In this document: positions 39,295 to 59,607 of the stretch, piece after piece | Numbering within the stretch: the first letter of the stretch is position 1 | Layout of the letters: each line of letters starts with the position of its first letter | NCBI GenBank assembly: GCA_963678065.2 | Contig: CAXXVZ010000005.1 | Span: 1,024,001-1,088,000, forward strand | DNA from: Treponemataceae bacterium | GTDB lineage: Bacteria; Spirochaetota; Spirochaetia; Treponematales; Rectinemataceae | Reading direction: 5' to 3' | Length of the DNA: 64,000 bases | Program-made: the position numbers and the translations under genes | Notes under the pieces: model-generated | Told to the model about the DNA's origin: nothing | The model's database searches: none | What the model saw: the letters and a program-made list of their open reading frames with translations, nothing else

Positions 39295-40851
39295 TCAATA
39301 TGCGCTTTTTGAAGCGCCACTTTTCTCAGGGAAAGATATCATACCATCCCAGCTGTTCAGTACTTTGCCCTCCCGAGCTTCTTTCTCGGAGAACCAGTGT
39401 GTAGTCACGCTCTTGAGCTCCGTATAGAATCGGACACCATCCGCCCCCATGGCATGGAGATCGCCAAAGAACGAGTTTTTGTGCCCGGTGAAACCGAACA
39501 CTCCGAGCGGCACAGGGATACCTACGTTGATCCCCACCTGCCCGCCGTCGGTCCGTTTCGCGAATTCGCGCGCGTAATATCCACTCTGCGTGTAAATGAC
39601 CGAGCCGTTCGCGAACTCGTTCGCGTTCATCAGTGCGATCCCTTCCTCGAAATCTTTCACGCGCTTGATGCAGAGGACGGGGCCAAAGACTTCCTGATTG
39701 CCGATGCTCATCTCCGGCGTGACGTGGTCCAGGAGGGTCGGGCCGAGGTAGAATCCGTTCTCGTAGCCTTTCACGACGATGTCTCTTCCATCGAGAACGA
39801 CTTCGGCGCCTTCCGCTATTCCCTTCGCAATCCAATTTGAAACGAAGGCGCGGTGCTCGGCGTTGACGACCGGACCCATCTGGCTCCATTTCTCGTACGC
39901 GGGCCCGACTTTGAGTTCGGACATGAATTTCTTCAGGATCGCGACGAGTTCATCGGCTATCTCTTCTTCGGCGACGATTACGGGAAGTGCCATGCAGCGT
40001 TCGCCCGCGCAACCGCAGGCCGAGTTGATGATGCCGCGGGCGGTTCTCTCCAGCGCGGCATCCTTGAGCACCAAAGCGTGATTTTTGGCCTCTGTAAGGC
40101 ATTGCACGCGCTTTCCGTTGGCCGCCGCCGTCTCGTAGATATGCCTGCCGACACCGGTGGAGCCGACGAACGTAATGCCCTTCACATCGGGATGCTTGAG
40201 AAGTATTTCGGCCTCATGCCTGGAACAGGTGACAAGATTGAGCACCCCTGAAGGCAAGCCCGCTTCCGCCCAGAGTTCCATGATCCGCATCGATGTCTGC
40301 GGCGTAAAACTCGCGGCCTTGATGACCATCGTGTTTCCCGTCGCGATACAGATAGGTGCCATCCACCCCATTGGGATCATGGCAGGGAAGTTCCAGGGAG
40401 CAATCCCCGCGAAGACTCCCATGCTTTCCATGTACTGGGTCGTATCGTATCCGGTCGAGCAATTCATCAAGGCAGGACCTTTCATAAGATGGGGTATCCC
40501 GCACGCGAATTCCACGACTTCCGTGACCTTCAGCACATCGCCCATGGCCTCGTCGAGCACCTTGCCGTTCTCGCGGGCGCAGAGAACGGTCAGTTCGTCG
40601 AGATGGCTGTCCAGCAGGGCTTTCATGCGGAATAGCACCTGCACTCTTTTGTTCGGCGGCGTATTCGACCAAGCCGGATATGCCGCTTTCGCCGAGGCTA
40701 CCGCCGCTTCAACCTCCGCCGCCGTGCACTGTGGAGCGCGAGCTATTATTTCACCCGTCGATGGATTGTAGCAGTCCATGTATTTGGTGGTTTCCGAGGT
40801 TTTCCATCCCCCATCGATCCAATACTGAAGCATCTTCATTTTCGCATCCAT
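39295..40851 (-). CDS. iolA: CoA-acylating (methyl)malonate-semialdehyde dehydrogenase, copy 2
   Basis: Same motifs as copy 1 (AGERCMA, FFGDLH); close paralog. Confidence 0.9.
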   Translation of the reverse strand: MDAKMKMLQYWIDGGWKTSETTKYMDCYNPSTGEIIARAPQCTAAEVEAAVASAKAAYPAWSNTPPNKRVQVLFRMKALLDSHLDELTVLCARENGKVLDEAMGDVLKVTEVVEFACGIPHLMKGPALMNCSTGYDTTQYMESMGVFAGIAPWNFPAMIPMGWMAPICIATGNTMVIKAASFTPQTSMRIMELWAEAGLPSGVLNLVTCSRHEAEILLKHPDVKGITFVGSTGVGRHIYETAAANGKRVQCLTEAKNHALVLKDAALERTARGIINSACGCAGERCMALPVIVAEEEIADELVAILKKFMSELKVGPAYEKWSQMGPVVNAEHRAFVSNWIAKGIAEGAEVVLDGRDIVVKGYENGFYLGPTLLDHVTPEMSIGNQEVFGPVLCIKRVKDFEEGIALMNANEFANGSVIYTQSGYYAREFAKRTDGGQVGINVGIPVPLGVFGFTGHKNSFFGDLHAMGADGVRFYTELKSVTTHWFSEKEAREGKVLNSWDGMISFPEKSGASKSAY

Positions 40852-40968
40852 TCTGTTATTCCTCCCGTAATTTCATTCATATGACATAAAACGCTCTTGG
40901 GTCCCACTTGCAATTCATCAACTTCCGCGCCCGCCCATCGATTGGTGAGGCATGCAGATACCCTATCC

Positions 40969-41655
40969 TCATTTTGCGCCTACCTTCCTCCTTCGGGCAT
41001 ACGTGAGCGCGAGGCCCAGGGCAACCGATAAATATGCCGCAGTAATGACCCTGTACTCGGAGGGCAGCATGAAGGTCAACGTATGGGCGGGGATCCAGAA
41101 CAAAGGGATAGTCTTTCCGACGACAAACCGGATGAAGTCCGGCCAATCCACTTCGGCTATGGCATCATTCAACATTACAATCTTCTTCCGCAAACGAAGA
41201 TCGATGAAAGTGTCGCAGACCCTGTGCGCTCCCATGAAGACAATGCCAAACGTCAAATTCATGAGAGCGCTCACGAAAAACGCCGCCAGCACCTTCGCCG
41301 GAAATCCTGTCCCGACAAAGAGGAGCTTTCTTTCAACGAGGCCTCTGACTCCATCCGAAAAGAGGGCGAACATCAAGACAATCGCCATCCCCACAATACC
41401 CCACACGAGCGCCTTGACAAGGAATCCTGGCGGCCTGTGCCATTTCCCCTCGAGAATGCGCATGGCCAGCAACTCGCCCATGGATGCCATTACGGCGAAC
41501 TTGAAGAAGCCCAGAAGATAAGGATGCACGTTGGTCAGCATCACAAAAGTATCGCGGCTTTTGGACACGACCAGTATCGCCGTTATTCCGCAGAAAATCG
41601 CGGCCCAGGAAAAATCCCCGATACGTGTTTTCATCCTGTTGTCAGAACCACTCAT
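40969..41655 (-). CDS. Membrane protein, Mpv17/PMP22-like
   Basis: Multiple TM segments, C-terminal FWIPAHTLTFMLP..YRV..A motif. Confidence 0.6.
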   Translation of the reverse strand: MSGSDNRMKTRIGDFSWAAIFCGITAILVVSKSRDTFVMLTNVHPYLLGFFKFAVMASMGELLAMRILEGKWHRPPGFLVKALVWGIVGMAIVLMFALFSDGVRGLVERKLLFVGTGFPAKVLAAFFVSALMNLTFGIVFMGAHRVCDTFIDLRLRKKIVMLNDAIAEVDWPDFIRFVVGKTIPLFWIPAHTLTFMLPSEYRVITAAYLSVALGLALTYARRRKVGAK

Positions 41656-42560
41656 TTGTCGCCCCTGGCCGCGACGAGGCAAGCGAGCGCGATGGAATCG
41701 ATCTTCGCCTTGGCGTTATCCGACCTGGAAACCATGACGATCGGTTTCAGGGCGCCCGCGACGATACCGGCGATTTTCGCGCCGGCATAATAGACGAGCG
41801 TCTTGCCTATCATATTGCCCGCCTCTATGTTCGGCACGATGAAGATGTCCACGTCTCCGGCGATGACGCTATGGATGCCTTTATGCCCGGCCGCTTCGCG
41901 GCTCGCTGCCACATCCATGGCTATCGGGCCCTCGACGATGCACGGCGGGAAATTGCCGGCTTTCCAGCGTTCCACCAGCGCCTGAGCATCCATCGTGGCG
42001 GGCATCTTGGGAGTGGGTTTTTCATTTGCCGCGAGGATGGCTATTTTCGGCATGTCGATGCCAAGCCCGCGAACGACCTCGATAGCATTACGAAGGATTT
42101 GCTCTTTCTCATCGAGGGTAGGGGCAATATTCATGCCCCCGTCAGAGTGAAAAACCAGCTTGCGCGACGATGGTATTTCAAACGCCGCGATATGGCTCAA
42201 TATCCTGCCGGACCGCAGGCCCCTGGAAGGGTCGAGGGCCGCCTTCAGGAAATCGGAACTGTTGATGCGGCCTTTTGCCAGGACATCGGCCTTTCCCTCC
42301 CTCACCATCTCCGCCGCGAGGAGGGCGGCGGCGGTATCATCCGGTTCGTGCACGATCGTGATGTCCGTGTCGAGTCCTATTTCCCTGCACATAGTCCCGA
42401 TCGCTCTTTCATCGCCGACCAGTATGGATCGGGCAAGTCCTATTCCCGCCGCGCCTTTCACCGCGAGAAGCACTTCCCGATCCTGGGCGACGGCAACGCA
42501 GATGGTACGCATGCCAAGGGCGCAGCTTTGCGCCACCAGTTGATCGAAGCTTGTGATCAT
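41652..42560 (-). CDS. ptb: Phosphate butyryl/acyltransferase
   Basis: ADVLAKG, ILSHIA, SDGGMNIAP, EGP.A.D.A, PNIEAGN, VSRSD. Confidence 0.88.
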   Translation of the reverse strand: MITSFDQLVAQSCALGMRTICVAVAQDREVLLAVKGAAGIGLARSILVGDERAIGTMCREIGLDTDITIVHEPDDTAAALLAAEMVREGKADVLAKGRINSSDFLKAALDPSRGLRSGRILSHIAAFEIPSSRKLVFHSDGGMNIAPTLDEKEQILRNAIEVVRGLGIDMPKIAILAANEKPTPKMPATMDAQALVERWKAGNFPPCIVEGPIAMDVAASREAAGHKGIHSVIAGDVDIFIVPNIEAGNMIGKTLVYYAGAKIAGIVAGALKPIVMVSRSDNAKAKIDSIALACLVAARGDK

Positions 42561-43642
42561 CGGCCTTTCCCCATTCCCTGCCCGTATATCTTCGCCTTTT
42601 CCTCGCCCCGCAGCACCCGCAATGCGCCAGCCGCCAGGGACACAAGCTCTTCCTCTCCGGGAACGACCTTTATCGGCGCGATGAACTCGACACGTTCCGA
42701 GATTTCGCGGACGAAAACCTCGTCGTGCGCGATTCCCCCTGTGAGGATGATCCTGTCCACCTGACCCCGGAGCACGGTGGCCATCGCGCCGATTTCCTTG
42801 GCCGTCTGGTACGCCATGGCCGCGAGCACGATGGCTGCCTTGGAGTCGCCGCTTTCGGCCATCCTGCGGGCCGCGCGGATATCTTTCGTGCCGAGATAGG
42901 CGCACATGCCTCCGGAGCCCATCATGCGCGACAGCAATTCCTTTTCCTTGTATTTTCCCGAATAACACAGGCGGATAAGCTCGAGAGAAGGTACGCTGCC
43001 TGCGCGATCCGGAGAGAAGGGGCCCTCCTCCCGAGCGTTATTCACATCTATCATCCTTCCGCTGCGGTGTGCGGAGATCGATATCCCGGAGCCGAGATGC
43101 GCCACGATGAAATTGACTTCGCCATAACCCTTGCCCATTTCCCCGGCTACTTTTCTCGCGACAGCTTTGCTGTTGAGGGCGTGGGAGAGGCTTTCCCGGG
43201 GCAACTCCGGCAACCCCGAGAGTCCCGCGACTTCTTCCATTTCATCCACCGCCACGGGATCCACTATGAAAGCCGGTACCCCCGCGCCGCTGGCGAGCCT
43301 GTACGCGATTATGGCTCCCAGGTTGGATGCGTGCTCACCTCTTTGCGCTTCTTCCAGGTCGGCGAGCATCGCACCGTTGACTTCGTAGGTTCCTCCCTCA
43401 AGAGGCCGCAGAAGCCCGCCCCTGCCGACGACCGCGTCGAGCGATGATCGGGGAATGCCCGCTTCGCCGAGAGCTTTCGTGACAATCTCCAGCCGGTAAG
43501 GCCATTGATCGAAAACCCTTTCATACCGCTCCAGGTCATCACCTTGATGCTCGACAGTACAGCGCATCGCCTCGCGTTCGTCGTCAAAGACAGCCATCTT
43601 GGTGGAAGTCGAGCCTGGATTTATCGCGAGCACCCTTTTCAT
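42557..43642 (-). CDS. buk: Butyrate kinase
   Basis: INPGSTSTK, GRGGLL, EHASNLG, HALN, HLGSGIS, EGPFSP.R.G, LTGGIA. Confidence 0.95.
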   Translation of the reverse strand: MKRVLAINPGSTSTKMAVFDDEREAMRCTVEHQGDDLERYERVFDQWPYRLEIVTKALGEAGIPRSSLDAVVGRGGLLRPLEGGTYEVNGAMLADLEEAQRGEHASNLGAIIAYRLASGAGVPAFIVDPVAVDEMEEVAGLSGLPELPRESLSHALNSKAVARKVAGEMGKGYGEVNFIVAHLGSGISISAHRSGRMIDVNNAREEGPFSPDRAGSVPSLELIRLCYSGKYKEKELLSRMMGSGGMCAYLGTKDIRAARRMAESGDSKAAIVLAAMAYQTAKEIGAMATVLRGQVDRIILTGGIAHDEVFVREISERVEFIAPIKVVPGEEELVSLAAGALRVLRGEEKAKIYGQGMGKGR

Positions 43643-43723: not shown

Positions 43724-45394
43724 CTATTTTCCGGGGCGCCAGGGAGCAGGAGGTTCGATACCCAGATCGGTGATCACTTCCACGAGAGCGGGCCTGTCGG
43801 CGGCGAGCGCCATCTTCAAAGCAGGCGCTATCTCTTCCGGGTCCTCGACGCGCACGGCGAAAACGCCCATCGCCTTGGCAATTTCCGCAAAACTGATATC
43901 CTTTTTGAAAACGTAATTGCCGTGATCGAATTCTTTGCCTTTGAACAAAGCTCTGCGAACGTTCGACCCCTGTCCGTACCCATAATTGTTGTTGACCACG
44001 GTGATGGTCTTTATGCCGTACCGCATCTGGGTTTCCATTTCCGTCAGGTGGTACCACAATCCTCCGTCTCCCGTAAAACAGAAGACGGGGCGATCGCCCG
44101 CCGCGCATTTGACGCCGAGAGAAGCCGGATATGCCCAGCCCAAGGAGCCTCCACCCGGCCTTATGTAGGTTTGACCGGCTCTTATCCTGATCCTCGAGCA
44201 TGTCCAGATCGAAGCGTGCCCCGTATCGGCCACGAGGACGGCGTCATCGGGCATCATGGCCTCGAGTTCCTTGCAGAGCCGTTCCGGGCGAATCGGGATC
44301 GCGCCGGAATTGGCGTTTCCCGACTCCTCCCGGTACCACGCATCCACGATGCCCCTGACGGTGGCGATCCAGTCCCCGTCTGCGCAGGGGAAAGCGGCCT
44401 GGGCGAGGGCTTCGGCGCACAGTCTGGCGTCGCCCAGAACTCCCGCCTCAATGGAGTAGTTCCTTCCCAGTTCGACAGGATCGATATCCATCTGCACGAT
44501 TCTGGTCTTCTGATCCGGGATGGTCCAATCGAGGGTAACCTGATCGCCTGTATGGCTCCCGATGTATATGACGAGATCGGCGCGGGCGACGACTTCGTTG
44601 GCCGTGTTTCTGCAATAGTTCCCGACGCAGCCGACGCTCAGAGGATGATCTTCGGGGATAGTCCCCTTGCCGCTCGCAGATGTGGCGACGGGGATATTGA
44701 GTCTTTCGGCCATCGCCGTCACGGCTGCTCCGGCATCGGAGCGAATCACACCGCCGCCCGCGACGATCACGGGCCTCTTCGATTCCCGCAATATCCTCGC
44801 CACCGCGGCTATCGAGGAAAGGTCCGGTAGGATCCGATGGGGAGGAAGCTGGAACGCGGAGACGTTTTTGATGTCGGGGAAATCCCCTTCCGCCCGATCC
44901 AGAAATCCGAGGAAATTCACCATGTCGAGGTGTGCCGGCCCCGGATTGCCGGAAACCGCTTCCCGTATCGCCTGGGGAAAATACAGCGAGAGCTGCTGGA
45001 TGGTTTCCGCGGAGACATTGTACTTTGTTACCGGCTGATAAAAAGGACGGTGATCCACTTCCTGATAGGAATTCCGGTTCTGGAAAATCTGATCTTTCTT
45101 TCCGGTCAGTGCGATGACGGGAGAATTGCTGAGGTAGGGCTCCTGCAATCCCGCGGCCAGGTTGGCTGCTCCCACGGACTGGGCGAAGACGAAACCAGGC
45201 TTTCTCGCCATGCGGGCGAATCCGTCGGCCATATAGGCCGCTGATTTTTCGCAATGGCAGATGATCCTCTCGATTCCATTCCGCTGCAATTCATACATGG
45301 TCTCCCAGAACGAGGTCTCCATTATGAAGATGTGGCTGTTCCCGATCGATTTTATCGTATCAGCCATGAATTTCGCGCCTGTTGTTCTCATCAT
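43724..45394 (-). CDS. ThDP-dependent enzyme (acetolactate synthase-like superfamily)
   Basis: HCE..AAYMADGFAR, GAANL, PGPAHLD, GDGG..NNN. Confidence 0.88.
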   Translation of the reverse strand: MMRTTGAKFMADTIKSIGNSHIFIMETSFWETMYELQRNGIERIICHCEKSAAYMADGFARMARKPGFVFAQSVGAANLAAGLQEPYLSNSPVIALTGKKDQIFQNRNSYQEVDHRPFYQPVTKYNVSAETIQQLSLYFPQAIREAVSGNPGPAHLDMVNFLGFLDRAEGDFPDIKNVSAFQLPPHRILPDLSSIAAVARILRESKRPVIVAGGGVIRSDAGAAVTAMAERLNIPVATSASGKGTIPEDHPLSVGCVGNYCRNTANEVVARADLVIYIGSHTGDQVTLDWTIPDQKTRIVQMDIDPVELGRNYSIEAGVLGDARLCAEALAQAAFPCADGDWIATVRGIVDAWYREESGNANSGAIPIRPERLCKELEAMMPDDAVLVADTGHASIWTCSRIRIRAGQTYIRPGGGSLGWAYPASLGVKCAAGDRPVFCFTGDGGLWYHLTEMETQMRYGIKTITVVNNNYGYGQGSNVRRALFKGKEFDHGNYVFKKDISFAEIAKAMGVFAVRVEDPEEIAPALKMALAADRPALVEVITDLGIEPPAPWRPGK

Positions 45395-45412: not shown

Positions 45413-46222
45413 TTATACGTTCCCCACGAAAAGCGACCACTCGTGTCCCGGCAGGACGAGTTCTTTTCTGTTCAGCGTCAGGGCTTTGGCTTTATAGATG
45501 CTGTCATACCAGGAATAGTAGTCGTAGGTGATGCTCGACGGTTCGGCGGGAGTTATGGCCGCCGCCGGTTTTCTCTTCACTTTCGTACTGTTCCCGTACA
45601 TGTCGGTGAATATGTCCATGTCCGGAAAGAAATGAAGATAGTCGTTGCAGAGATCACCCAACAGAAGCATTCTTCCTTTCCCTGTTTCCACGGTAATTAT
45701 CTGATGACCAAGGGTATGTCCCGGGGTCTTGTAGAGGGAAATCCCCGGAAGGAATTCGAAATCCCCATCCACGGGAATCGTGTCGAGCTTCTCAAGTTTG
45801 GGGATGACCCCGGGATCGTAGTCTTTCCGCAGGATCTGCACAGGAAGGGGATGAAGCAGATTCGTCCATTCATCTTTCTGGAATACGTGCTTGGCCCGGG
45901 GGAATAGATGGCAATTCCCGGCATGGTCGTTGTGGAGGTGGGTATAGAGCACGACATCGATGTCTTCGGGGACAAGATCGAATTTTTTCAATGCCCTTGT
46001 CACGAAAGAGGCGCCCCCTTCGGCAGGGAATCCAGCGAAGGCCTTCCCGTCGACGAAATAGTCTTCGCTCACCCCGCAGTCGACCAGGATATTGAAATGT
46101 CCGCTCCGGAGCAGGAAACCGCAGTAGGGTGTATCGACAGGCTTGGTCAGGCCCGCGAAAAGATACTCGGGGGGAACGAGCATTTTGCCATAATAAAGAA
46201 TTCCCAGATCCCACGATGCCAT
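45413..46222 (-). CDS. Metallo-beta-lactamase-fold hydrolase (N-acyl homoserine lactonase family)
   Basis: THLHNDHAG, TPGHT.GH, GD, PGH. Confidence 0.88.
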   Translation of the reverse strand: MASWDLGILYYGKMLVPPEYLFAGLTKPVDTPYCGFLLRSGHFNILVDCGVSEDYFVDGKAFAGFPAEGGASFVTRALKKFDLVPEDIDVVLYTHLHNDHAGNCHLFPRAKHVFQKDEWTNLLHPLPVQILRKDYDPGVIPKLEKLDTIPVDGDFEFLPGISLYKTPGHTLGHQIITVETGKGRMLLLGDLCNDYLHFFPDMDIFTDMYGNSTKVKRKPAAAITPAEPSSITYDYYSWYDSIYKAKALTLNRKELVLPGHEWSLFVGNV

Positions 46223-46255: not shown

Positions 46256-47461
46256 TCATCCTTCCTTGAAAACTTCATCGAGCCAGTCGAACAGCTCGCA
46301 GGCCATGAGGACACGGTTCTCGCCCGTGCAATGGGCGGCGGCTCCTTCGTTGAAAGGCGTAACCACCTTCTTTTTCCTGTCCGTGTTCACCCGTTCCATG
46401 TAGATCTGGCCTTGTCGATGCCCAATGGGATTGGCTGCCTCACCCTCCCCGACCACATTCAGAACAGGGCATGTGATATCCGCAGGATCATACGAGAAAC
46501 CCTTCGTCGCCTCCGCCTGTCCCGTAAAATTCCCGGGTTTCAGGCCCAGGCGCCATACGACGTTTTCGGTCACTCCCTTCCCGAAAGGTGACCATGTCTT
46601 GTCGATTTCATCCTGGGTGAGCTTCGAAAACGGCATGGCCGCGAACATTTCGTAATTGTCGATGACGGCGGCATTGGTGATGAGGGCTTTGATTCTCTTG
46701 TCGACGCTCGCGGCCCTGGGAGCGAAATAACCTCCGAAGCTGATCCCCAACACCGAAAGCCTCTCGGAATCGACTTCGGGCATTTTCGTGACGACATCCA
46801 GTATCGCCCCGATGGGTTTTTCCGCGTTTCCCCTGAAGAATAGCCCTTCAGCCGGGAGCAGACCCTGCCCGGGGATATCTACAGTGACGAAATTGTATCC
46901 GCGTTCCACCGCGAGAGGACCGATGTAGAAGAGGTTGTCCGTGAGGAAGCATTCCCCTCCGCCCACCATGAGAAGGGTCTTGCGGGGCTTCCCGTCATTC
47001 GCCACGGGCCAGAAGAAGCCCGGCAGGACCGCGTTCTCGAAGGGAACCCCTATCGGGATCATCGCGGGTTCCATGAGGCTGCCGGCCTTTTCGATACACC
47101 CGTACGATTTCTTGCCGAGCGAAAGATAGTCGGCGTCCCAGGGGAGCCTCGAAGTGAGGGATGAACGGTAATAATTCGCCGCGAGCAAGAAATTTTTGGA
47201 CGCCGAAACCTTGTGCCCCTTTCTCATTGCCTCTTCCGCCCGCGACTCCTTCCGCTCGGCCAATTCCTTCCATTCGCGCTGCCAGCTCTCGGGATCCCCG
47301 TCCTTTATCCTTCCGGCGGCGTAGAATGCCTCGCCAATGACGCAACCGCCCGTCGATATGCTGCCAAGGAGCCATTGGAAAACAAAATCCATCTCGATAT
47401 TCTTGAAATAGTAGCTCGAGTACACACGATGAGCGTCGAAGACTTCCTTCTGCGCTTCCAT
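46256..47461 (-). CDS. Alpha/beta hydrolase (2,6-dihydroxypseudooxynicotine hydrolase/FrsA-like)
   Basis: A.NYYR, DIPGQG, GISFGGY, GAAAHC; start uncertain (47461, 47512 or 47536). Confidence 0.78.
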   Translation of the reverse strand: MEAQKEVFDAHRVYSSYYFKNIEMDFVFQWLLGSISTGGCVIGEAFYAAGRIKDGDPESWQREWKELAERKESRAEEAMRKGHKVSASKNFLLAANYYRSSLTSRLPWDADYLSLGKKSYGCIEKAGSLMEPAMIPIGVPFENAVLPGFFWPVANDGKPRKTLLMVGGGECFLTDNLFYIGPLAVERGYNFVTVDIPGQGLLPAEGLFFRGNAEKPIGAILDVVTKMPEVDSERLSVLGISFGGYFAPRAASVDKRIKALITNAAVIDNYEMFAAMPFSKLTQDEIDKTWSPFGKGVTENVVWRLGLKPGNFTGQAEATKGFSYDPADITCPVLNVVGEGEAANPIGHRQGQIYMERVNTDRKKKVVTPFNEGAAAHCTGENRVLMACELFDWLDEVFKEG

Positions 47462-47706
47462 CGCCGATGTCGAGCCGGCCTTCTCTTTTTCGCAGCATGA
47501 TGGATTATTCACGGCGATCCTCCCTTCGATGAACACTCAAGGATGATGATATGTGATGAATCCGCTCCGAAATATAGGTTTCTTGCTCTTCATTTTTCAT
47601 CGCTTGCTCTCCGCTTATCCATGATTGCTATCGGGAACGCGTGGGTTTCCCTCCGGTGCGCCGGAACGATTTGTATTGACAAATTCATTGCTCTATATGA
47701 AAATAA

Positions 47707-52477: not shown

Positions 52478-52876
52478 TCAGATTCGCTGTATCAACTCGA
52501 CCAGAATGCCTGCGGTGGAACTCGGATGGACGAAGGCAACCAACGATGATCCGATGGAGGCGGGCTTTCCTTGCACCAGACGGACGCCCTTTTCCTCCAG
52601 GGACTTCAGCTCCTGATCGATATCATCCACGCGGAAAGAGACATGATGCATGCCCCCTCCTTTCTGGTCGAGGAATTTTGCGATGCTCCCTGTCGGACCT
52701 ACCGGCTCGATCAGCTCGAGTTTCGTTTCACCCGCGGAAATTATGGTCGTATTGAAATCTCCCTGGGGTGAAGCGACGCTTCCCGACACCTGGAACCCGA
52801 ATGTTCCGGACAAAGTTTCGATGACCTGCGCGGCATTTTTCACGACGATACCGATATGATCTATCTGCTGCACCAT
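52478..52876 (-). CDS. mce: Methylmalonyl-CoA epimerase-like VOC protein
   Basis: IDHIGIVV, LELIEP, GGMHHVSF.VDDI, AFVHP...GILVEL. Confidence 0.8.
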   Translation of the reverse strand: MVQQIDHIGIVVKNAAQVIETLSGTFGFQVSGSVASPQGDFNTTIISAGETKLELIEPVGPTGSIAKFLDQKGGGMHHVSFRVDDIDQELKSLEEKGVRLVQGKPASIGSSLVAFVHPSSTAGILVELIQRI

Positions 52877-52890: not shown

Positions 52891-54036
52891 TCAGACCTTC
52901 AGTATGTGTACGGCGCAGGCGCCGCATTCCAGATTCGCGACCTCGCCGCCCATGGTCTGGGCAAGGCCTATCTTCGCTCCCTCGACTTGACGTTGGCCGG
53001 CCTCGCCCCTCAGGTGCCACACGATTTCCGCGATCTGCTCGATGCCCGTGGCGCTCACCGGGTGGCCGCGGGAGAGCAGGCCGCCGCTCGGGTTCACCGG
53101 TATGCGGCCGCCTATCTCGGTTTCACCCCTGTCGACGAGGGCTCCGCCTTCGCCGGCTTTGCAGAAGCCGAGTTCCTCGTAATGGCTTAGTTCTGAATAG
53201 GTGAAAGCGTCGTGGCATTCGCAGACATCGATGTCCCCGGGACCGCAGTCCGCCATCTCGTAGGCTTCGTTCGCACATTCCCTCGTCAGATCGGAGGAAG
53301 CCATATCGGTCCAGCGGAATGCGTAGTCGCCCATCTTCAGCACGGACGCGGCCACCCTGACGGGTTTGGCGCTGAATTTTTTGGCAACATCCATCGAGCA
53401 AAGGATCACCGCCGCGGCTCCATCCGTATTCGGGCAGCACTGCAAAAGCGTTATGGGATCGCAGATCATCCGGGAATTGAGTATCTCATCCAGCGAAAGG
53501 GCCTTTTTGTATTGGGAATACGGATTCAGGCAACCATTCCTGTGATTCTTCACCGATATCCTTGCGAACTGCCCGATCGTCGTTCCGTACAAGTGCATGT
53601 GCCTTTTCATGCCCATGGCGAAGTGCGCTGGCATATTCATCCCCAATTGTCCCGCGAGATCGCCTTCTTCGGGCGGAATCAGTTTCCCGGCTATAGGACT
53701 CGTGGTCATCGATTCAGCGCCGATGGCGATTCCCACATCGTAGAGTCCGGAAGCGATCGCGTACCACGCCGCCCTGAACGCGGAGGCGCCTCCCGCGCAG
53801 GCATTTTCCATATTGTTGACTTCGATCTTCGAAATTCCGACGTCTTCCAGTATCCTCTGCCCTAATACAGCTCCCCCGAATACGGTGGAGCTGTAGGCGC
53901 ACTGGATGCTCCTGCGATCCATCGTCGCGTCCCGAAGCGCTTCGGTGACAGCCTTGCTTGCCATGTCGACCACGCGCACTTTCGGGAATTTTCCGAAGGC
54001 AGTGGTACCGACACCGATGATGGCGACCTCTCTCAT
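52891..54036 (-). CDS. SCP2-type thiolase
   Basis: ENACAGG, KNH.NG..NP, DGAAA, HDAFT, NPSGGLL.RGHP. Confidence 0.9.
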   Translation of the reverse strand: MREVAIIGVGTTAFGKFPKVRVVDMASKAVTEALRDATMDRRSIQCAYSSTVFGGAVLGQRILEDVGISKIEVNNMENACAGGASAFRAAWYAIASGLYDVGIAIGAESMTTSPIAGKLIPPEEGDLAGQLGMNMPAHFAMGMKRHMHLYGTTIGQFARISVKNHRNGCLNPYSQYKKALSLDEILNSRMICDPITLLQCCPNTDGAAAVILCSMDVAKKFSAKPVRVAASVLKMGDYAFRWTDMASSDLTRECANEAYEMADCGPGDIDVCECHDAFTYSELSHYEELGFCKAGEGGALVDRGETEIGGRIPVNPSGGLLSRGHPVSATGIEQIAEIVWHLRGEAGQRQVEGAKIGLAQTMGGEVANLECGACAVHILKV

Positions 54037-54039
54037 CTT

Positions 54040-54459
54040 TTATTCCTTTTCATTCGTTGGGCGGGGTTCATGGTTCGGCTCGAAGATGTACCCGAAAACT
54101 TCTTTGCCATTCTCCTCCCAAAGAGTGCCGGTAACCATTTTCATTTTCATCCCGATCCGCAGCCCTTCGTTTCCCCAACCTCTGATCTGTCCGAATACCC
54201 GAAGACCTTCCGGAAACTCAACCCATCCTATCGCGTAGGGTGCTGCATAATGTGCCGAAGGCATATTCACGACAGTGTAGGTGTACAGTGTCCCCGTACC
54301 GGAAACCTTGACCGGCATAAGTTCCGCGCCGTGGCATTCGAGGCAGAATGTCCTCTTCGGGAAAAAGAGCTTCCCGCAGGACGCGCACCTGCTGGCCAGA
54401 AGTTCGCAATCTTTCGCTCCCTCATCCATCAACCCCTGTGCGAGAGCTACTCTTTCCAT
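54040..54459 (-). CDS. Zn-ribbon/OB-fold protein (DUF35), thiolase partner
   Basis: CASCG..FFP....CLEC, GTLYTYTVV, PYAIG.V. Confidence 0.9.
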   Translation of the reverse strand: MERVALAQGLMDEGAKDCELLASRCASCGKLFFPKRTFCLECHGAELMPVKVSGTGTLYTYTVVNMPSAHYAAPYAIGWVEFPEGLRVFGQIRGWGNEGLRIGMKMKMVTGTLWEENGKEVFGYIFEPNHEPRPTNEKE

Positions 54460-54473: not shown

Positions 54474-55328
54474 TCATTTGTACTTGTATACGCCGCGGCC
54501 CGATTTTTTCCCGAAGTATCCGGCAACCACCAACTGTTTCAGCAAGGGACTAGGCCGATACTTGTCCCCTCTCTCCGCGCAGATGTATTCCGAGCTGTTG
54601 AGGATGACGTCGAGGCCGGCGAAATCGGCGAGCTCCAGCGGCCCCAAGGGATGCCCGAGGACCAGCTTGAATTCTTTGTCGATATCCTCGGCGGTGGCGA
54701 TGCCCTCCTGCAGCACGTTGAAGGCTTCGTTTATGTACATGCACATGATCCTCGTGCCGGCAAAGCCCGGGGAATCCTTCGTGACCCAGTATTCCTTGCC
54801 GATGAGGGTCAGGAACCTTTTCGTGGATTCCAAAATCTCATCCGATGTCTCAAGGCCAGTGATGATCGCCACGCCCTTCATGATCGGCACCGGATTCGTG
54901 AAATGCATGCCGATGACCTTGTCTCTTCTCCCCGTGGAGGAGGCGAGCGCGGTTATGCTGATGCCGGAGGTGCAGGAACCCAGAATCACTTCCGCTTCGC
55001 AGAGTTCGTCGAGTTTCTTGAAAACCCCTCGCTTGAGTCCGATTTCTTCGGGAACGGCCTCTATCACCATATCGATGTCGCTCAACGCAGAAGGAAAATC
55101 GAGGGTCTCCGTGATATTCGCCAAAGCCGATTTTTCCTGAAGTTCCGTTATCCTGTTCTTTTCCCGCATGAGTTTCAGGCTTTTCGCAATTTTCCCCATG
55201 CCGTCGCGGAGCATCTTCTCACTCACGTCCAGAAGGTTGACCGATATCCCATGCATCGCGGCGACCTGCGCTATCCCGCCCCCCATGGTGCCGGCTCCGA
55301 TGACTGCCAGTTTTTTCACTTCATCCAT
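54474..55328 (-). CDS. 3-hydroxyacyl-CoA dehydrogenase
   Basis: GAGTMGGGIA, IEAVPE, GMHFTNP, PLGPLEL.D..GLD, GKKSGRG. Confidence 0.92.
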   Translation of the reverse strand: MDEVKKLAVIGAGTMGGGIAQVAAMHGISVNLLDVSEKMLRDGMGKIAKSLKLMREKNRITELQEKSALANITETLDFPSALSDIDMVIEAVPEEIGLKRGVFKKLDELCEAEVILGSCTSGISITALASSTGRRDKVIGMHFTNPVPIMKGVAIITGLETSDEILESTKRFLTLIGKEYWVTKDSPGFAGTRIMCMYINEAFNVLQEGIATAEDIDKEFKLVLGHPLGPLELADFAGLDVILNSSEYICAERGDKYRPSPLLKQLVVAGYFGKKSGRGVYKYK

Positions 55329-55381: not shown

Positions 55382-56617
55382 CTAGATCACATCGTCTCTT
55401 TTCAACCTTTCTATTTCTTCCCGGGAAAGACCGAGAATCTCATGGTAGACATGCTCGTTGCCTTCGCCCAACATCGTCGCGTAGGTCACGGCAGGCTTCG
55501 ATTTGGACATCCTGAAGGCAGGCCCATGGAACAGGGATGTCTTTCCCATCGCGGGATGCTCGATCTCCTGGAAGAAATCGTAGTGGGCATACTGGGGATC
55601 CCGAGCCTGATCGCTCGCGTTCGCCACGATGCCGGCGGAAACTCCGGCACCCTGCAGCAATTCCATGACTTCATGCGCCGTATGGGTGATCGTCCACTCC
55701 CCCAGCAATCTATCCAGCTCGTCTTCGTTTTGCTTTCTCCCCGAAAGGCTGGAAAACCTGGATTCCCCCGCCCAGGGAGGGCTTCCCATGACTTCGCGCA
55801 AACGCTCCCATTCGGCATCGGTGAAGACAGCTATGGCGCACCACCTGTCATCGCCGAGGCATCGGTAGACACCATGCGGAGCGGCGTTCTCCTTCCTGTT
55901 GCCGTTGATGGTCAGTTCCCTGTCGTTGATCGCGTAATCGAGGATCAGTGGCGCGAGTATCTGGATGCTCGCCTCGTGCTGGGATATGTCGAGACACTGG
56001 CCTTCGCCGGTTCTCTCCCGGTAGTCGAGCGCCGCGATCAGCGCAGGAATGCAGAACAAGGGAGCCAGGTGATCCGTGAAGGGTTGGGCGTCGAAGCCGC
56101 AGGCTGTCCTGTCCGGCCAACCCATCAGGCTGTTGAATCCGGAGAGCGATGTCAGCTGGTTCCCGAATCCCGGCTGCCGCGCCAGAGGGCCAGTCTGGCC
56201 GTGCACGCAGGTGCGCAACATTATGATATCGGCATTGATTTTCCTGAGGTCTTCATAGCCCAGGCCCCACTTCTCCATGGTCTGGCCCACGAAGCTCTCG
56301 ACCACGATATCCGACCAGGAGGCCAATCTTTTCGCGATCCCGATTCCTTCGGGCTTGTTGAGGTTGAGCGTGATCCCATGCTTCCTGGAAGGATTGGAAT
56401 AGGCGAAATACGCAGAGTGCTCGAGATCCGCCACGCCGTCTTTGTGGGGTCCTATCGTCCTGCAGCCGTCGGGCCTGTTCCGGGATTCGACCTTTATCAC
56501 GTCGGCGCCAAAATAGGAGAGATAGTTGACGGTGAATGGTCCCGCACCGTACATCGTGAAATCGAGTATCTTTATTCCTTCGAAAGGTTTCGTATCCATA
56601 TTCGCGGCGTTTTTCAT
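55382..56617 (-). CDS. Family III CoA-transferase, probable catalytic (BbsF-like) subunit
   Basis: GADVIKVES, VVESF, G.TGP, PFTD (Asp at the catalytic position), TGEGQ..DIS. Confidence 0.88.
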   Translation of the reverse strand: MKNAANMDTKPFEGIKILDFTMYGAGPFTVNYLSYFGADVIKVESRNRPDGCRTIGPHKDGVADLEHSAYFAYSNPSRKHGITLNLNKPEGIGIAKRLASWSDIVVESFVGQTMEKWGLGYEDLRKINADIIMLRTCVHGQTGPLARQPGFGNQLTSLSGFNSLMGWPDRTACGFDAQPFTDHLAPLFCIPALIAALDYRERTGEGQCLDISQHEASIQILAPLILDYAINDRELTINGNRKENAAPHGVYRCLGDDRWCAIAVFTDAEWERLREVMGSPPWAGESRFSSLSGRKQNEDELDRLLGEWTITHTAHEVMELLQGAGVSAGIVANASDQARDPQYAHYDFFQEIEHPAMGKTSLFHGPAFRMSKSKPAVTYATMLGEGNEHVYHEILGLSREEIERLKRDDVI

Positions 56618-57874
56618 CTAGATGACCCCCGCCTTTTTCAGGTCTTCCAGCATGTCTTCGGACAAGCCAAGCTCCCCGATGAACACTTCGGAATTCTGTT
56701 CCCCGATCAGGGGAGGCCGCAGCCCGGTCCGGCATTCAGGACCGCTGGTTTTAAAGAAGGCGCCTGGATAGGAGATGGTGTCATTGAGCTCGGGATGTTC
56801 GGTCCTGACCCAGAAACCCCTGCTCTGCAGCTGGGGAAACTCCACGATATCCTTGGGGGTGAAGATCGGGTAAAGGATGATGTCCCTCTTCACCGCGCCT
56901 TCGAGCAGCTCCTTTTTGGTCTTCGTCCTGAAAAATTCCGCGAAACCTTGGGTCCATCGGTGGATCCGGCTCTCGTCCAGGTTCCCCCAATCCCGGACGT
57001 AGGAATCCGTGTCCCCGAACCCTCGCGGATCGATCCCGTCGCCCTCCATCCATTCGGCGAGCCCCCGATTCGACCCGACCCGGAGAGGGCCGAAAAACGG
57101 AAAGAAGGTTATGGCGCCGTCCTTGCAGGAGTAGATGACGGGAATCGAGATGTTCTTCAGCGCGTTGAGCCAGTTGGGGCCCGATCGCCTCAACAGGATC
57201 TTTTCGAATTCCCAGAGCCCCTGGTATTCCGGACCTGTCGCCCAGAAAAGCGCCATGTGTGCCGACACATCGATATATTGTCCCTCTCCCGTCTTCGTCC
57301 GGTGAAAGAGCGCGACCATCGTGCCGATCGCGCCCTGGAGAGCGGCGAAAGCGGGGGTGATCGGAAAAGAAGGGCAGAGAGGCGGACGATCCGTATCCCC
57401 GTATATGTACTGATTGCCGGACATGGCCCACAGAACGAGGTCGCAGGCCTTGTACTCCCTGTAGGGCCCAGTCTGACCGAACCCCGTTATGGATGTCATG
57501 ATCAGTGAGGGATTCACTTCAGAAAGATGGGGATAGTCGAGCCCCAGACTCTCCAGGTATCCCGGATCGAAGGATTCGATTACGATGTCGGCTTCGGACA
57601 CCAGCTTTTTGAAGAGCTTCGCGCCCTCTTCTTTTTCGATATCGAGGGTCACGCTTTTCTTGTTCGAGTTGTATCCCCACCAATAGAGGCTCTTTTCCGG
57701 ATCGGCGACATCGTGATAATAAGGAGGGGTGTTTCGGCCCTCGTCCCCTTTCGGCCTCTCGACCTTGATCACGTCGGCGCCGAGATCGCCCAGGATCTTT
57801 CCGCAGAGATAGCCCCGCTCGTTCGAAAGATCCAACACCCTGTAGGGACTCAACATCCCAGCACTATTCCGCAT
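56618..57874 (-). CDS. Family III CoA-transferase, probable non-catalytic (BbsE-like) subunit
   Basis: LGADVIKVE.P.GD, NKKSVTLD, ITGFGQTGPY; no Asp at the equivalent position (FPITPAFA). Confidence 0.85.
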   Translation of the reverse strand: MRNSAGMLSPYRVLDLSNERGYLCGKILGDLGADVIKVERPKGDEGRNTPPYYHDVADPEKSLYWWGYNSNKKSVTLDIEKEEGAKLFKKLVSEADIVIESFDPGYLESLGLDYPHLSEVNPSLIMTSITGFGQTGPYREYKACDLVLWAMSGNQYIYGDTDRPPLCPSFPITPAFAALQGAIGTMVALFHRTKTGEGQYIDVSAHMALFWATGPEYQGLWEFEKILLRRSGPNWLNALKNISIPVIYSCKDGAITFFPFFGPLRVGSNRGLAEWMEGDGIDPRGFGDTDSYVRDWGNLDESRIHRWTQGFAEFFRTKTKKELLEGAVKRDIILYPIFTPKDIVEFPQLQSRGFWVRTEHPELNDTISYPGAFFKTSGPECRTGLRPPLIGEQNSEVFIGELGLSEDMLEDLKKAGVI

Positions 57875-57913: not shown

Positions 57914-58951
57914 TCACACACATATCGGATATACCCCGAACTCCCGAATCGCCCCGATCATCTCCAGGTAGTTCTGCGGCTTTACGGCGGAATGGATGGT
58001 ATTGCTCGACATGCATATATAGCCGCCCCCCTTGGCTCCCTGCCTCATGCATCTCCTCACGTCCTCGCGGACCGCTTCGGCCGAGCCCCAGCACAGCGTC
58101 TCGGCGCAGTCGACATTTCCCATGAGGGTGAGTCTTTCGCCGTATTTTTCCTTCATGAGACCAAGATCCATGCCGGCGTTGGGGTCAATCGGATGCAGGC
58201 CGTCGATGCCTGATTCCAGAAGGAGATCCATGATCGGCATGACATTCCCGTCCGTATGCTTGAACACGTAGGCGCCCTTGCTCTTGGCTTCGGTGGTCAG
58301 CGCCTTCAGGACCGGTATGACATGGCGCGAGAAACATCGATTCGAAAGCATCGGCCATTTTGTGGTCGCGTAATCGCCCGTGATGAAGATGATATCCGCC
58401 CCTGTCGCCATGCAGTTGTCGATATATTTCAGGTAATAGCCCCGCAGAAGCTCACCGATGCGGTCAACGAGCGGGGGATTCAGAATAAAATCTTTGTAGT
58501 AGTTTTCGGCCCCGCGCATCGTGCTGGCGATATCGAAAGGATCCTGAAACGCAACGATTATCGCCTTTCGACCCTTGTATCTGTCGACAATGTCCGCCAA
58601 TTGCCTGTAGCGCTTCGGATCATCGGGATCGGGGAGAACCCATGTGTCCAGGTCTTTTTCCGACTTTATCGGACCTTCCACCGGATGAATCGAATCGGAA
58701 GAGGTCTGCCAGACGACGCCCCATTTATTCCGGAACCTGCTCGAATCGAGCATCTCGGCCATATCGTTCTGGGGCATATCGTCCACGACGATGGCATCCA
58801 GGTCGAGCGCTTCGACTACATCGAAATAGCTGGCTCCAGGCTTTATGAAGTCTCTCACTTTTTGATGAATGTACAGTTCGAAATGAGGAACCCTGTCCGG
58901 CTCCTTGTGCCGCAATGTCGTCAGTACTCGTTCCAGACCAGAAAGCTCCAT
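57914..58951 (-). CDS. UroD/MtaA-CmuA-family (corrinoid methyltransferase-type) TIM-barrel protein
   Basis: EPDRVP, MRG.EN, GD, KHTDGN, GNVD, GGGYI..SSN.I. Confidence 0.85.
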   Translation of the reverse strand: MELSGLERVLTTLRHKEPDRVPHFELYIHQKVRDFIKPGASYFDVVEALDLDAIVVDDMPQNDMAEMLDSSRFRNKWGVVWQTSSDSIHPVEGPIKSEKDLDTWVLPDPDDPKRYRQLADIVDRYKGRKAIIVAFQDPFDIASTMRGAENYYKDFILNPPLVDRIGELLRGYYLKYIDNCMATGADIIFITGDYATTKWPMLSNRCFSRHVIPVLKALTTEAKSKGAYVFKHTDGNVMPIMDLLLESGIDGLHPIDPNAGMDLGLMKEKYGERLTLMGNVDCAETLCWGSAEAVREDVRRCMRQGAKGGGYICMSSNTIHSAVKPQNYLEMIGAIREFGVYPICV

Positions 58952-58968
58952 CGCACTACCCTCCCCGG

Positions 58969-59607
58969 TTATCCCAAAAGCTGAAAGAGCTTCTGCGCTC
59001 CCTCGGAGGCATCGGTTGCGTAGCAATCAGCCCCAATTTCCTCAGCCCACTGTTTCGTGCATATGCAGCCGCCGATAGCGACCTTGACCTTGTCCCTCAG
59101 ACCGGCCGCCTTCAAGGCCTCGATCGTTTTCCTCTGGTTTTCCATGGTGCTCGTCAGCAGGGCCGACAGTCCCAACACCTGGAAATCGTTGTCTCTCACG
59201 GCCTTGCAGAAATCTCCGGGCGACACGTCGACACCCAGATCGGTGACATCCCACCCATTACCTTCGAGCATCATCAGCATTATGTTTTTTCCGATATCGT
59301 GGATATCGCCCTGTACCGATCCGATGGCCACCTTCCCGACATAGTGAATGCCGCTTTTTGTCCCGGCAAGAATCGGCTTCAGGATGTTCAACGCAGATTT
59401 CATCGCGTCTCCCGCCATCAGCAATTCGGGGAGGAATATTTCTCCGTTCCCGAACATTGTCCCGACTTCCTCGATCCCGGCTATCATCCCCTTTTCCATG
59501 ACATCGCGCGCTGATATGCCCGAATCCAGCAAATCCCTTACCAACTTTTCAGTGCCTTTCGTGTTTCCCGAAAGGAGGCTGTCGATAATAACGGAACGTT
59601 CGACCAT
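58969..59607 (-). CDS. Corrinoid (cobalamin-binding) protein
   Basis: Cap domain FLPELL, GDIHDIGKN (DxHxxG), LSALL.ST, IGG, IGAD. Confidence 0.93.
   Translation of the reverse strand: MVERSVIIDSLLSGNTKGTEKLVRDLLDSGISARDVMEKGMIAGIEEVGTMFGNGEIFLPELLMAGDAMKSALNILKPILAGTKSGIHYVGKVAIGSVQGDIHDIGKNIMLMMLEGNGWDVTDLGVDVSPGDFCKAVRDNDFQVLGLSALLTSTMENQRKTIEALKAAGLRDKVKVAIGGCICTKQWAEEIGADCYATDASEGAQKLFQLLG

What the first reader, a model, noticed from the sequence alone, without database searches (positions are those of the whole stretch)
39295..59607. Uncharacterised 20-kb B12- and CoA-dependent anaerobic catabolic supercluster
Seen: corrinoid protein, UroD/MtaA-type enzyme, two CoA-transferases, 3-hydroxyacyl-CoA dehydrogenase, DUF35, thiolase and epimerase in one tight operon; then MarR, TRAP, a MetH-reactivation-like gene, and an operon of alpha/beta hydrolase, lactonase, ThDP enzyme, Buk, Ptb, membrane protein and IolA. 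Known: each family is familiar, but I do not recognise a described pathway joining corrinoid methyl transfer to Bbs-like beta-oxidation and Ptb/Buk ATP formation. Inference: uptake, (de)methylation, CoA activation, C-C cleavage and fermentation of a methylated aromatic or branched acid. This is the best candidate for a new system in the window.
Basis: partly seen in the sequence, partly recalled or inferred. Interest (0 to 1): 0.75.

Follow-up and report, generated by a model that had tools for sequence, protein, structure and literature searches.

The report
Conserved anaerobic demethylation and chain-cleavage cluster
A 20-gene block that probably lets an oxygen-free bacterium import a methyl-bearing organic acid or lactone, strip the methyl group with vitamin B12 and cut the carbon chain for energy; the same core recurs in unrelated bacteria, but its food source is unknown.

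Summary
All 20 genes are there as listed. The cluster is more than chance. The transporter's binding protein belongs to a rare, tight clade. All three other genomes found to carry it (one actinobacterial family) hold the same core beside it: alpha/beta hydrolase, metallo-lactonase, CoA activation, dehydrogenase, DUF35 plus thiolase, corrinoid plus UroD-like methyltransferase. The second C-C-cleaving enzyme varies: ThDP enzyme here and in one, beta-keto acid cleavage enzyme in two. The window's corrinoid and transporter promoters share a 17/20 motif found nowhere else in the genome. None of the four clusters has an enoyl-CoA hydratase or acyl-CoA dehydrogenase, so this is not the bbs pathway: the substrate must already carry its beta-oxygen. 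Best reading (0.5): B12-dependent O-demethylation and ester/lactone opening give a 3-hydroxy or 3-oxo acid, which is activated, oxidised and cleaved. Ptb/Buk, IolA, epimerase, MarR and the MetH-like gene were not found in the other clusters and look like host additions. The substrate is not identified. No paper describing the set turned up in 10 searches of an open-access library.

The parts
59664..59683 (-). Promoter-proximal motif ending in a -35 hexamer, upstream of the corrinoid operon
   Evidence: 17 of 20 identical to the site upstream of dctP; only these 2 sites in the genome at up to 2 mismatches
58969..59607 (-). Methyltransferase-cognate corrinoid protein (conserved core)
   Evidence: PF02310+PF02607; D101-x-H103-x-x-G motif; TIGR02370 193/215
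57914..58954 (-). UroD-superfamily putative corrinoid methyltransferase, 346 aa, H233-T-D235-G motif (conserved core)
   Evidence: PF01208; best PDB relative MtaA 4ay7 E 9e-14; clade mostly in Dehalococcoidia and Desulfobacterota records; corrinoid gene adjacent in 110 of 119 loci
56618..57874 (-). BbsE-like family III CoA-transferase subunit, no active-site Asp
   Evidence: best PDB hit 9fn0_A E 6e-60
55382..56617 (-). BbsF-like family III CoA-transferase subunit, Asp182 kept
   Evidence: best PDB hit 9fn0_B E 6e-76; T-D-H aligns with T-D-H of 9fn0_B
54474..55328 (-). 3-hydroxyacyl-CoA dehydrogenase-family protein with an atypical active site (Ser137, His158 kept; Glu170 is Ala, Asn208 is Thr, Asn135 is Cys; numbering from the ORF start at 55376)
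54040..54459 (-). DUF35 zinc-ribbon/OB-fold thiolase partner (BbsA-like; conserved core)
   Evidence: PF12172+PF01796, two CxxC motifs; BbsA model 69/250
52891..54036 (-). SCP2/BbsB-type thiolase with nucleophile Cys (conserved core)
   Evidence: best PDB hit BbsB 7pxp E 3e-75; BbsB model 290/750
52478..52876 (-). Methylmalonyl-CoA epimerase-like VOC protein (window only)
   Evidence: TIGR03081 111/115; a second copy lies beside the genome's mutase genes
51740..52267 (-). MarR-family regulator (window only; TetR or HTH-cupin in the other clusters)
   Evidence: PF12802
51537..51556 (-). Second copy of the promoter motif, upstream of dctP
50393..51472 (-). TRAP solute-binding protein DctP of a rare clade, conserved Arg in L-R-I-R (conserved core)
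   Evidence: 19 proteins at E<=1e-30, 17 of them 55-92% identical; R175 and R177 invariant in the alignment
49803..50291 (-). DctQ (conserved core)
   Evidence: PF04290; 52-54% identity in the other clusters
48493..49800 (-). DctM (conserved core)
   Evidence: PF06808; 60-64% identity in the other clusters
47707..48429 (+). Stand-alone MetH activation-domain-like protein (window only; homologues lie beside RACo and methyltransferase II genes elsewhere)
46256..47512 (-). FrsA/DHPON-hydrolase-like alpha/beta hydrolase, G-I-S266-F-G (family conserved, subfamily differs)
   Evidence: PDB 3fnb E 4e-45, 2jbw E 5e-14; 26-30% to the hydrolase of the other clusters
45413..46222 (-). Metallo-beta-lactamase-fold lactonase/esterase, HxHxDH (conserved core)
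   Evidence: PF00753; nearest solved relatives are AHL lactonases, E 4e-23; 44-45% in the other clusters
43724..45394 (-). ThDP-dependent enzyme of the acetolactate-synthase-like family (shared with G431; replaced by BKACE in G601 and G611)
   Evidence: Glu49 and GDG motif; best PDB hit BbmA E 1e-60; 41% to the G431 enzyme
42557..43642 (-). Butyrate kinase family (host module)
   Evidence: TIGR02707 507/289; 52% to a paralogue
41652..42560 (-). Phosphate butyryltransferase family (host module)
   Evidence: PF01515; its paralogue lies directly after iorAB
40969..41655 (-). Membrane protein, Mpv17/PMP22-like by language-model features; candidate product exporter (host module)
   Evidence: no Pfam hit; Atlas score 0.96; 49% paralogue between ptb and buk
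39295..40851 (-). IolA/MMSDH; membership of the system doubtful
   Evidence: TIGR01722 555/449; three paralogues at 76-88% in the genome; not found in the other clusters

Best explanation
One catabolic system for an O-methylated organic acid, or its lactone or ester, that already carries oxygen at the beta-carbon. All steps are inferred from gene families; none is shown. (1) The TRAP system imports a carboxylate. (2) The UroD-like enzyme moves the methyl group to the corrinoid protein; activator (RACo), methyltransferase II and the folate branch are supplied from elsewhere in the genome. (3) The two hydrolases open ester or lactone bonds and free a 3-hydroxy or 3-oxo acid. (4) The BbsEF-like heterodimer (a CoA ligase in other genomes) makes the CoA thioester. 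(5) The dehydrogenase gives the 3-oxoacyl-CoA. [quoted passage not shown] (7) In this host Ptb/Buk turn the leftover acyl- or aroyl-CoA into free acid plus ATP, and the membrane protein may export it. Within this reading my odds for the substrate: methoxy-aryl C3/C4 acid or lactone of lignin or lignan origin 45%, O-methylated pyrone or triketide lactone 25%, 3-O-methyl-2-deoxy sugar acid 10%, other 20%.
For: Co-conservation: G431 has lactonase 44%, hydrolase, DctPQM 57/52/60%, ThDP 40%, corrinoid, UroD 48%, PrpD, CoA ligase, SDR, DUF35 and thiolase within 16 kb. G601 and G611 have PaaK-like ligase, TetR, hydrolase, DctPQM 64-66/54/62-64%, lactonase, BKACE, dehydrogenase 39-40%, DUF35, thiolase 47% and a corrinoid-UroD fusion. 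Of 159 UroD loci only the one with an orthologous DctP carries lactonase, hydrolase and ThDP genes. Shared promoter motif. No hydratase or acyl-CoA dehydrogenase gene in the four clusters and none found in this genome with one query each. The lactonase family shares a locus with BKACE in 11 of 16 Desulfobacterota loci, directly adjacent in 10; one also has a corrinoid gene and a distant UroD-like gene (L214). RACo, a methyltransferase II candidate and FTHFS are in the genome. The paralogous ptb-membrane-buk trio follows iorAB, and no class I benzoyl-CoA reductase family hit was found, which fits export of an unreduced aryl acid. Precedent for the chain-cleavage logic: deoxyribonate pathway (10.1101/205583, passages).
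Against: The three supporting genomes belong to one family and two are close kin (about 84% protein identity), so there are two independent lineages and three arrangements. Only the transporter is clearly orthologous; hydrolase (26-30%), UroD of G601/G611 (28-29%), CoA activation and the second cleavage enzyme are replacements, so the substrates may differ. The UroD clade has no characterised member among the solved structures and is only about 20% identical to the long UroD-type proteins compared; the superfamily also acts on haloalkanes (PMC13222342, passages), so O-methyl specificity is an assumption. The dehydrogenase lacks the usual Glu and Asn and may be slow or do other chemistry. Six of the 17 matching promoter bases are the generic -35 hexamer, the pattern was derived from the two sites, and 6 of 1500 random upstream pairs reach 17. 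IolA and the epimerase have no assigned step.
Confidence: 0.5

Rival explanations
1. A mosaic island: hydrolase, lactonase, TRAP, dehydrogenase and thiolase form one pathway, while the corrinoid-UroD pair (and Ptb/Buk, IolA) are separate modules that serve other substrates.
For: The pair usually occurs without these genes (7 of 71 loci with a beta-oxidation gene within 7 kb downstream); the genome has 25 UroD-family matches; lactonase plus hydrolase occur alone in two genomes of the host phylum; nearest named relatives of the CoA-transferase are mostly Chloroflexota.
Against: The pair is present in 4 of 4 clusters, from two different UroD subfamilies and once as a fusion, which suggests repeated recruitment; it heads the tight operon and shares the promoter motif with dctP; equal contig lengths suggest UroD (72%) and BbsE-like (59%) relatives share a contig in a further lineage (indirect).
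Confidence: 0.2
2. Same chain chemistry, but the methyl group comes from nitrogen or sulfur (carnitine-, betaine- or alkaloid-like, or methylthio acid).
For: The corrinoid scores best against methylamine and betaine corrinoid models; dehydrogenase plus BKACE is also the layout of carnitine catabolism (recalled); one UroD locus has dehydrogenase, BKACE and CoA-transferase (L121).
Against: No MttB gene in the cluster or found in the genome; carnitine dehydrogenase models score lowest; the MtaA H-x-C zinc motif is H-T-D here; TRAP rather than a betaine transporter.
Confidence: 0.15
3. The corrinoid system adds a methyl group (for example C-methylation that dearomatises a ring and sets it up for hydrolytic C-C cleavage by the alpha/beta hydrolase), as recalled for anaerobic oestrogen methylation.
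For: A MetH-activation-like gene is in the cluster; the hydrolase is related to C-C hydrolases 2jbw and Ayg1; no methyltransferase II in the cluster.
Against: The MetH-like gene was not found in the other three clusters; characterised UroD-superfamily methyltransferases I are demethylases or dehalogenases (PMC13222342, passages).
Confidence: 0.07
4. A true bbs-type benzylsuccinate (toluene) beta-oxidation operon.
For: Best PDB hits are BbsE, BbsF and BbsB.
Against: BbsA and BbsB models far below cut-off; no BbsG, BbsH or BbsCD equivalents in the cluster; other genomes use CoA ligases instead.
Confidence: 0.03

Closest known systems
Oxidative 2-deoxyribonate pathway (Klebsiella michiganensis CoA route; Pseudomonas simiae BKACE route; 10.1101/205583)
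   Same: Lactonase, CoA synthetase/transferase, 3-hydroxyacyl-CoA dehydrogenase and thiolase with no hydratase step; thiolase and BKACE are alternative ways to cut the 3-oxo acid.
   Different: No corrinoid module, TRAP system, DUF35 or ThDP enzyme in the passages read; no glycerate kinase in this cluster; sequence orthology not tested.
bbs operon of anaerobic toluene degradation (BbsEF, BbsAB)
   Same: Heterodimeric family III CoA-transferase with one Asp-bearing subunit; zinc-ribbon-partnered thiolase.
   Different: No BbsG, BbsH or BbsCD equivalents; scores below equivalog cut-offs; joined to methyl-transfer and hydrolase genes.
Corrinoid O-demethylases (MtvB/OdmB/VdmB/MtoB type) and CdmBCA (PMC13222342)
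   Same: UroD-superfamily methyltransferase beside a corrinoid protein; RACo activator and methyltransferase II candidate in the genome.
   Different: Short 346-aa H-T-D-G clade, only distantly related to CdmB (E 7e-5); methyltransferase II and activator are not in the cluster; tied to side-chain cleavage; no acetyl-CoA synthase found in this genome.
Anaerobic phloroglucinol pathway PGR-DPGC-TfD-TAL (PMC10470551)
   Same: Hydroxyacyl-CoA-dehydrogenase-family enzyme next to a triacetate-type BKACE in the G601/G611 variant (360-367/430 bits); cyclase-like genes near several related lactonase loci.
   Different: The window has no reductase, cyclase or BKACE in the cluster.

Membership tests
bbs operon | BbsE/BbsF heterodimer with the catalytic Asp in one subunit | tested here: met
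   Each subunit's best PDB hit is the matching 9fn0 chain; Asp182 only in the BbsF-like one
bbs operon | BbsA/BbsB equivalogs | tested here: not met
   69/250 and 290/750 bits, although BbsB is the best PDB hit
bbs operon | BbsG acyl-CoA dehydrogenase, BbsH hydratase, BbsCD SDR | tested here: not met
   none in the cluster; no hydratase or acyl-CoA dehydrogenase hit in the genome with one query each
bbs operon | Benzylsuccinate synthase upstream | not tested
   two glycyl-radical-like genes 8-20 kb beyond the window were not examined
Corrinoid O-demethylase system | Corrinoid protein with DxHxxG | tested here: met
Corrinoid O-demethylase system | Methyltransferase I of the UroD superfamily | tested here: inconclusive
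   superfamily yes; distant from CdmB and from long UroD-type proteins
Corrinoid O-demethylase system | Methyltransferase II and reductive activator available | tested here: met
   not in the cluster; RACo over Pfam cut-off at C4:261549 and a pterin-binding candidate at C4:69231 (189/259 bits)
Corrinoid O-demethylase system | Cleavage of a methyl ether | not testable with these tools
   needs an assay
MtaA-type methylcobalamin:thiol methyltransferase | H-x-C zinc motif | tested here: not met
   H-I-C of 4ay7 aligns with H-T-D; D235 invariant in 64 sequences; model 72/400
AHL lactonase (AiiA) | HxHxDH motif and family score | tested here: inconclusive
   motif invariant; score 76/375
Phloroglucinol pathway | PGR reductase, cyclase-family DPGC, TfD and TAL together | tested here: not met
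   no SDR, cyclase or BKACE in the window cluster; paper passages
Oxidative deoxyribonate pathway | Lactonase, CoA activation, hydroxyacyl-CoA dehydrogenase, thiolase, glycerate kinase | tested here: inconclusive
   first four families present, glycerate kinase not in the cluster; orthology not tested
Canonical L-3-hydroxyacyl-CoA dehydrogenase | Ser, His, Glu and Asn active-site set | tested here: not met
   Ser137 and His158 kept; Glu is Ala, Asn is Thr; His, Ser and Asn named as essential in PMC10470551; the Glu role is recalled

The most novel reading that the evidence does not exclude
A dedicated, cross-phylum anaerobic pathway in which sediment bacteria harvest the methyl group and the side chain of methoxy-aryl lactones or aryl-glycerate-type acids from lignin or lignans and excrete the intact ring. 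[quoted passage not shown]
Probability: 0.2. Interest if true: 0.8.

Novelty: new variant of a known kind. Interest (0 to 1): 0.6.

Why it matters
It defines a compact, testable gene set for an undescribed anaerobic pathway shared by at least two phyla of uncultured bacteria. One ligand screen on the DctP protein would name the substrate. That would also give a function to two large orphan families common in Dehalococcoidia and Desulfobacterota records: the short UroD-like methyltransferases and the BKACE-linked metallo-lactonases. If the substrate is lignin-derived, it bears on how methoxylated plant carbon is turned over in anoxic sediments.

Tried and rejected
DctP clade not found in 0 of 68 other genomes of the host family, 0 of 260 of its class or 0 of 351 genomes of the Dehalococcoidales record's class; these are samples of incomplete genomes. 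No close UroD orthologue in 40 relatives (best 34-36% on partial matches). The lactonase search of the host phylum hit 2 other genomes of 400, both with lactonase plus hydrolase only. Solved DctP structures are too distant to suggest a ligand (best E 6e-13). No structure model could be made, so the metal site of the UroD protein and the DctP pocket stay untested. No RNA holder listed. The promoter and terminator scan was near chance level. Composition is only mildly atypical (GC 0.552, 13% of 261 windows lower; tetranucleotide distance exceeded by 17%; no tRNA nearby), so transfer rests on patchy distribution. The PaaR-like inverted repeat in G601/G611 resembles the Burkholderia operator (PMC9493321, passages) but is generic for TetR proteins and was given little weight. 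Six look-ups of earlier scan findings returned nothing. Ten paper searches found no description of this gene set; the library lacks most subscription journals, the BbsAB structure paper was not held, and no supplements were read.


Full report
OBSERVATION. All are on the minus strand except the MetH-activation-like gene. The corrinoid-to-epimerase run has gaps of 0-39 nt, the hydrolase-to-membrane-protein run -31 to 54 nt. Contigs of runs X3 and X6 (the latter a strain about 98.5% alike) cover the stretch in the same order, so it is not a misassembly. Its CoA-transferases, thiolase, DUF35, dehydrogenase, lactonase and hydrolase have essentially no close paralogue in the 5.27-Mb genome, whereas IolA has three at 76-88% and Ptb, Buk and the membrane protein have a paralogous trio.

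ANATOMY. The two CoA-transferases are a BbsE/BbsF-type pair: their best solved relatives are 9fn0_A (E 6e-60) and 9fn0_B (E 6e-76), and only the second keeps the Asp. The thiolase's best relative is BbsB (E 3e-75) but it scores 290 of 750 bits on the BbsB model. The dehydrogenase keeps Ser137 and His158 but has Ala for the usual Glu and Thr for the usual Asn. The UroD-like protein has an invariant H-T-D-G where MtaA has H-I-C-G, so it is not an MtaA-type thiol methyltransferase. DctP keeps an invariant Arg pair, which by established knowledge of TRAP proteins points to a carboxylate. The lactonase has HxHxDH and AHL lactonases as nearest solved relatives. The alpha/beta hydrolase is related to SMU_737, DHPON hydrolase and Ayg1. 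What is missing matters: no enoyl-CoA hydratase or acyl-CoA dehydrogenase in the cluster and no hit in the genome with one query each. The genome has RACo beside a second corrinoid gene, a methyltransferase II candidate, FTHFS and methylmalonyl-CoA mutase, but no hit for acetyl-CoA synthase or the benzoyl-CoA reductase/HGD-D family (completeness 99.9%).

IS IT ONE SYSTEM? I first followed the UroD clade. The best 79 of 218 genome loci and 80 of 566 metagenome loci were kept; named ones are mostly Dehalococcoidia and Desulfobacterota. A corrinoid gene is adjacent in 110 of 119 loci with enough flank, but a CoA-transferase, thiolase, DUF35 or dehydrogenase lies within 7 kb downstream in only 7 of 71. 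So the pair is a mobile module. One locus stood out: L074 (G431, record title 'Actinomycetes bacterium') carries lactonase (44%), hydrolase, DctPQM (57/52/60%), ThDP enzyme (40%), corrinoid, UroD (48%), PrpD, CoA ligase, SDR, DUF35 and thiolase. DctP proved the specific marker: 19 proteins at E<=1e-30, 17 of them 55-92% identical, two labelled Thermoleophilia. A search of 401 genomes of G431's class found 3 holders, all in one family of 61. G601 and G611 have PaaK-like ligase, TetR, hydrolase, DctPQM, lactonase, BKACE, dehydrogenase, DUF35, thiolase and a corrinoid-UroD fusion (intact, 623 aa, in G601; frameshifted in G611) from a different UroD subfamily (28-29%). The core is therefore present in 4 of 4 genomes known to hold this DctP, in three arrangements and two lineages; none of the four has a hydratase or acyl-CoA dehydrogenase in the cluster. 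Inside the window, the promoters of the corrinoid operon and of dctP share 17 of 20 bases, and no third site exists in the genome at two mismatches; 6 of 1500 random upstream pairs reach that score, and six of the bases are the -35 hexamer, so this is modest support. Equal contig lengths suggest that DctP, UroD and the BbsE-like gene share contigs in a close relative (87-92%), and UroD and BbsE-like relatives (72%, 59%) in a further lineage (indirect). Against: the hydrolase, CoA activation, second cleavage enzyme and regulator are non-orthologous replacements, and Ptb/Buk, membrane protein, IolA, epimerase, MarR and the MetH-like gene were not found in the other clusters. The DctP clade was not found in 68 other family members, 260 class members or 351 genomes of a Dehalococcoidales record's class.

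WHAT THE LACTONASE FAMILY ADDS. It occurs in 15 of 401 genomes of a Desulfobacteraceae record's phylum. I fetched 16 loci covering 17 of the 20 matches (three short contigs left out); 11 hold a BKACE gene, 10 directly adjacent. Two of the three such BKACEs scanned are closest to the 3,5-dioxohexanoate-cleaving model (438 and 427 of 430 bits), the third to the lysine-fermentation enzyme; those of G601 and G611 score 360 and 367 on the first. One locus has BKACE, lactonase, corrinoid and a distant long UroD-like gene in a row (L214). The family thus feeds 3-oxo acids to C-C cleavage, which fits a lactone or ester substrate.

MECHANISM (inferred throughout). Import of a carboxylate; B12-dependent removal of an O-methyl group, with activator and methyl acceptor supplied in trans and, lacking acetyl-CoA synthase, the methyl probably oxidised on folate or used for methionine; ester and lactone hydrolysis to a 3-hydroxy or 3-oxo acid; CoA activation; oxidation; thiolytic cleavage, with a second cut by the ThDP enzyme or BKACE; and, in this host, ATP from Ptb/Buk. 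The paralogous ptb-membrane-buk trio follows indolepyruvate:ferredoxin oxidoreductase genes, which suggests the module handles aryl- or branched acyl-CoAs and excretes the acid. A 2-hydroxy-3-oxo acid could in principle be cut by both an acetolactate-synthase-like enzyme and a BKACE, which would explain the swap; an aryl-paraconate would open to the hydroxybenzylsuccinate that enters the bbs route after the hydratase step, which would explain BbsEF and BbsAB without BbsG and BbsH. Both are chemical reasoning of mine, not results. Confidence 0.5; rivals: mosaic island 0.2, N- or S-demethylation 0.15, methylating system 0.07, true bbs 0.03.

COMPARISON WITH KNOWN SYSTEMS. It works like the oxidative deoxyribonate pathway, where lactonase, CoA activation, dehydrogenase and thiolase, or BKACE, cut a 3-hydroxy acid (10.1101/205583, passages seen), with an added module like the corrinoid O-demethylases (PMC13222342, passages seen). 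It is not a member of the bbs operons, of the MtaA family or of the phloroglucinol pathway (PMC10470551, passages seen). PMC9493321 was read in passages for the PaaR operator. Other papers were seen as search listings only. Statements on carnitine catabolism, oestrogen methylation, the bbs reaction order and the catalytic Glu of hydroxyacyl-CoA dehydrogenases are recalled. Ten searches found no description of this set; most subscription journals are not in the library and no supplements were read.

VERDICT. Real, conserved across two phyla and apparently undescribed: a new combination of known enzyme kinds with an unknown substrate. Interest 0.6. A DctP ligand screen is the single step that would settle most of it.

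Noticed in passing
G000 whole genome: 25 UroD-family matches but only two stand-alone corrinoid genes plus MetH and one RACo; some relatives have up to 35 matches. A large unexplained expansion, possibly sharing one corrinoid partner.
   Followed up: no
L212, L214, L215, L218-L220, L222-L224, L226: A recurrent lactonase-BKACE gene pair in Desulfobacterota-phylum genomes, with ABC or TRAP transporters, ADP-forming acyl-CoA synthetase and cyclase-like genes; looks like its own undescribed pathway.
   Followed up: partly
L189:7401-9272 (G601): N-terminal corrinoid domain fused to a UroD-like methyltransferase, 623 aa.
   Followed up: partly
L104 and L105: Two UroD genes with TetR, MetH-activation-like, RACo, CobW and a BbsEF-like pair (L105 also methyltransferase II and a CocE-type hydrolase): another link between methyl transfer and BbsEF-type transferases.
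   Followed up: partly
window 59825-62880: AraC/GyrI regulator, a small MoaD-like ORF (label recalled, no family hit) and an aldehyde:ferredoxin oxidoreductase directly upstream, in the same low-GC stretch; could oxidise an aldehyde made by the ThDP enzyme; not found in the other clusters.
   Followed up: partly
window 63720 to G000:C5:1088935: ISL3-family transposase in two overlapping frames at the right edge of the low-GC stretch.
   Followed up: yes
G000:C5:1095721-1099184 and 1104988-1108342: Two large ORFs with adjacent activase-like ORFs that look like glycyl-radical enzymes (label from reading the sequence, no family scan), 8-20 kb beyond the window.
   Followed up: no
window 6336-7910 and 39295-40851: Two IolA/MMSDH copies 88% identical in the window; four in the genome.
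   Followed up: no
window 47529-47538 and 59619-59628: A 10-base word just before the ribosome-binding sites of both the hydrolase and the corrinoid gene; 7 copies in the genome; may be chance.
   Followed up: no
window 24564-30724: Two large probably secreted proteins: one with F5/8 discoidin and formylglycine-generating-enzyme domains, one unassigned 711-aa ORF.
   Followed up: no
window 30865-39202: A second TRAP system with dehydrogenases and a BNR-repeat (sialidase-like) gene next to the cluster; probably a separate sugar-acid locus.
   Followed up: no
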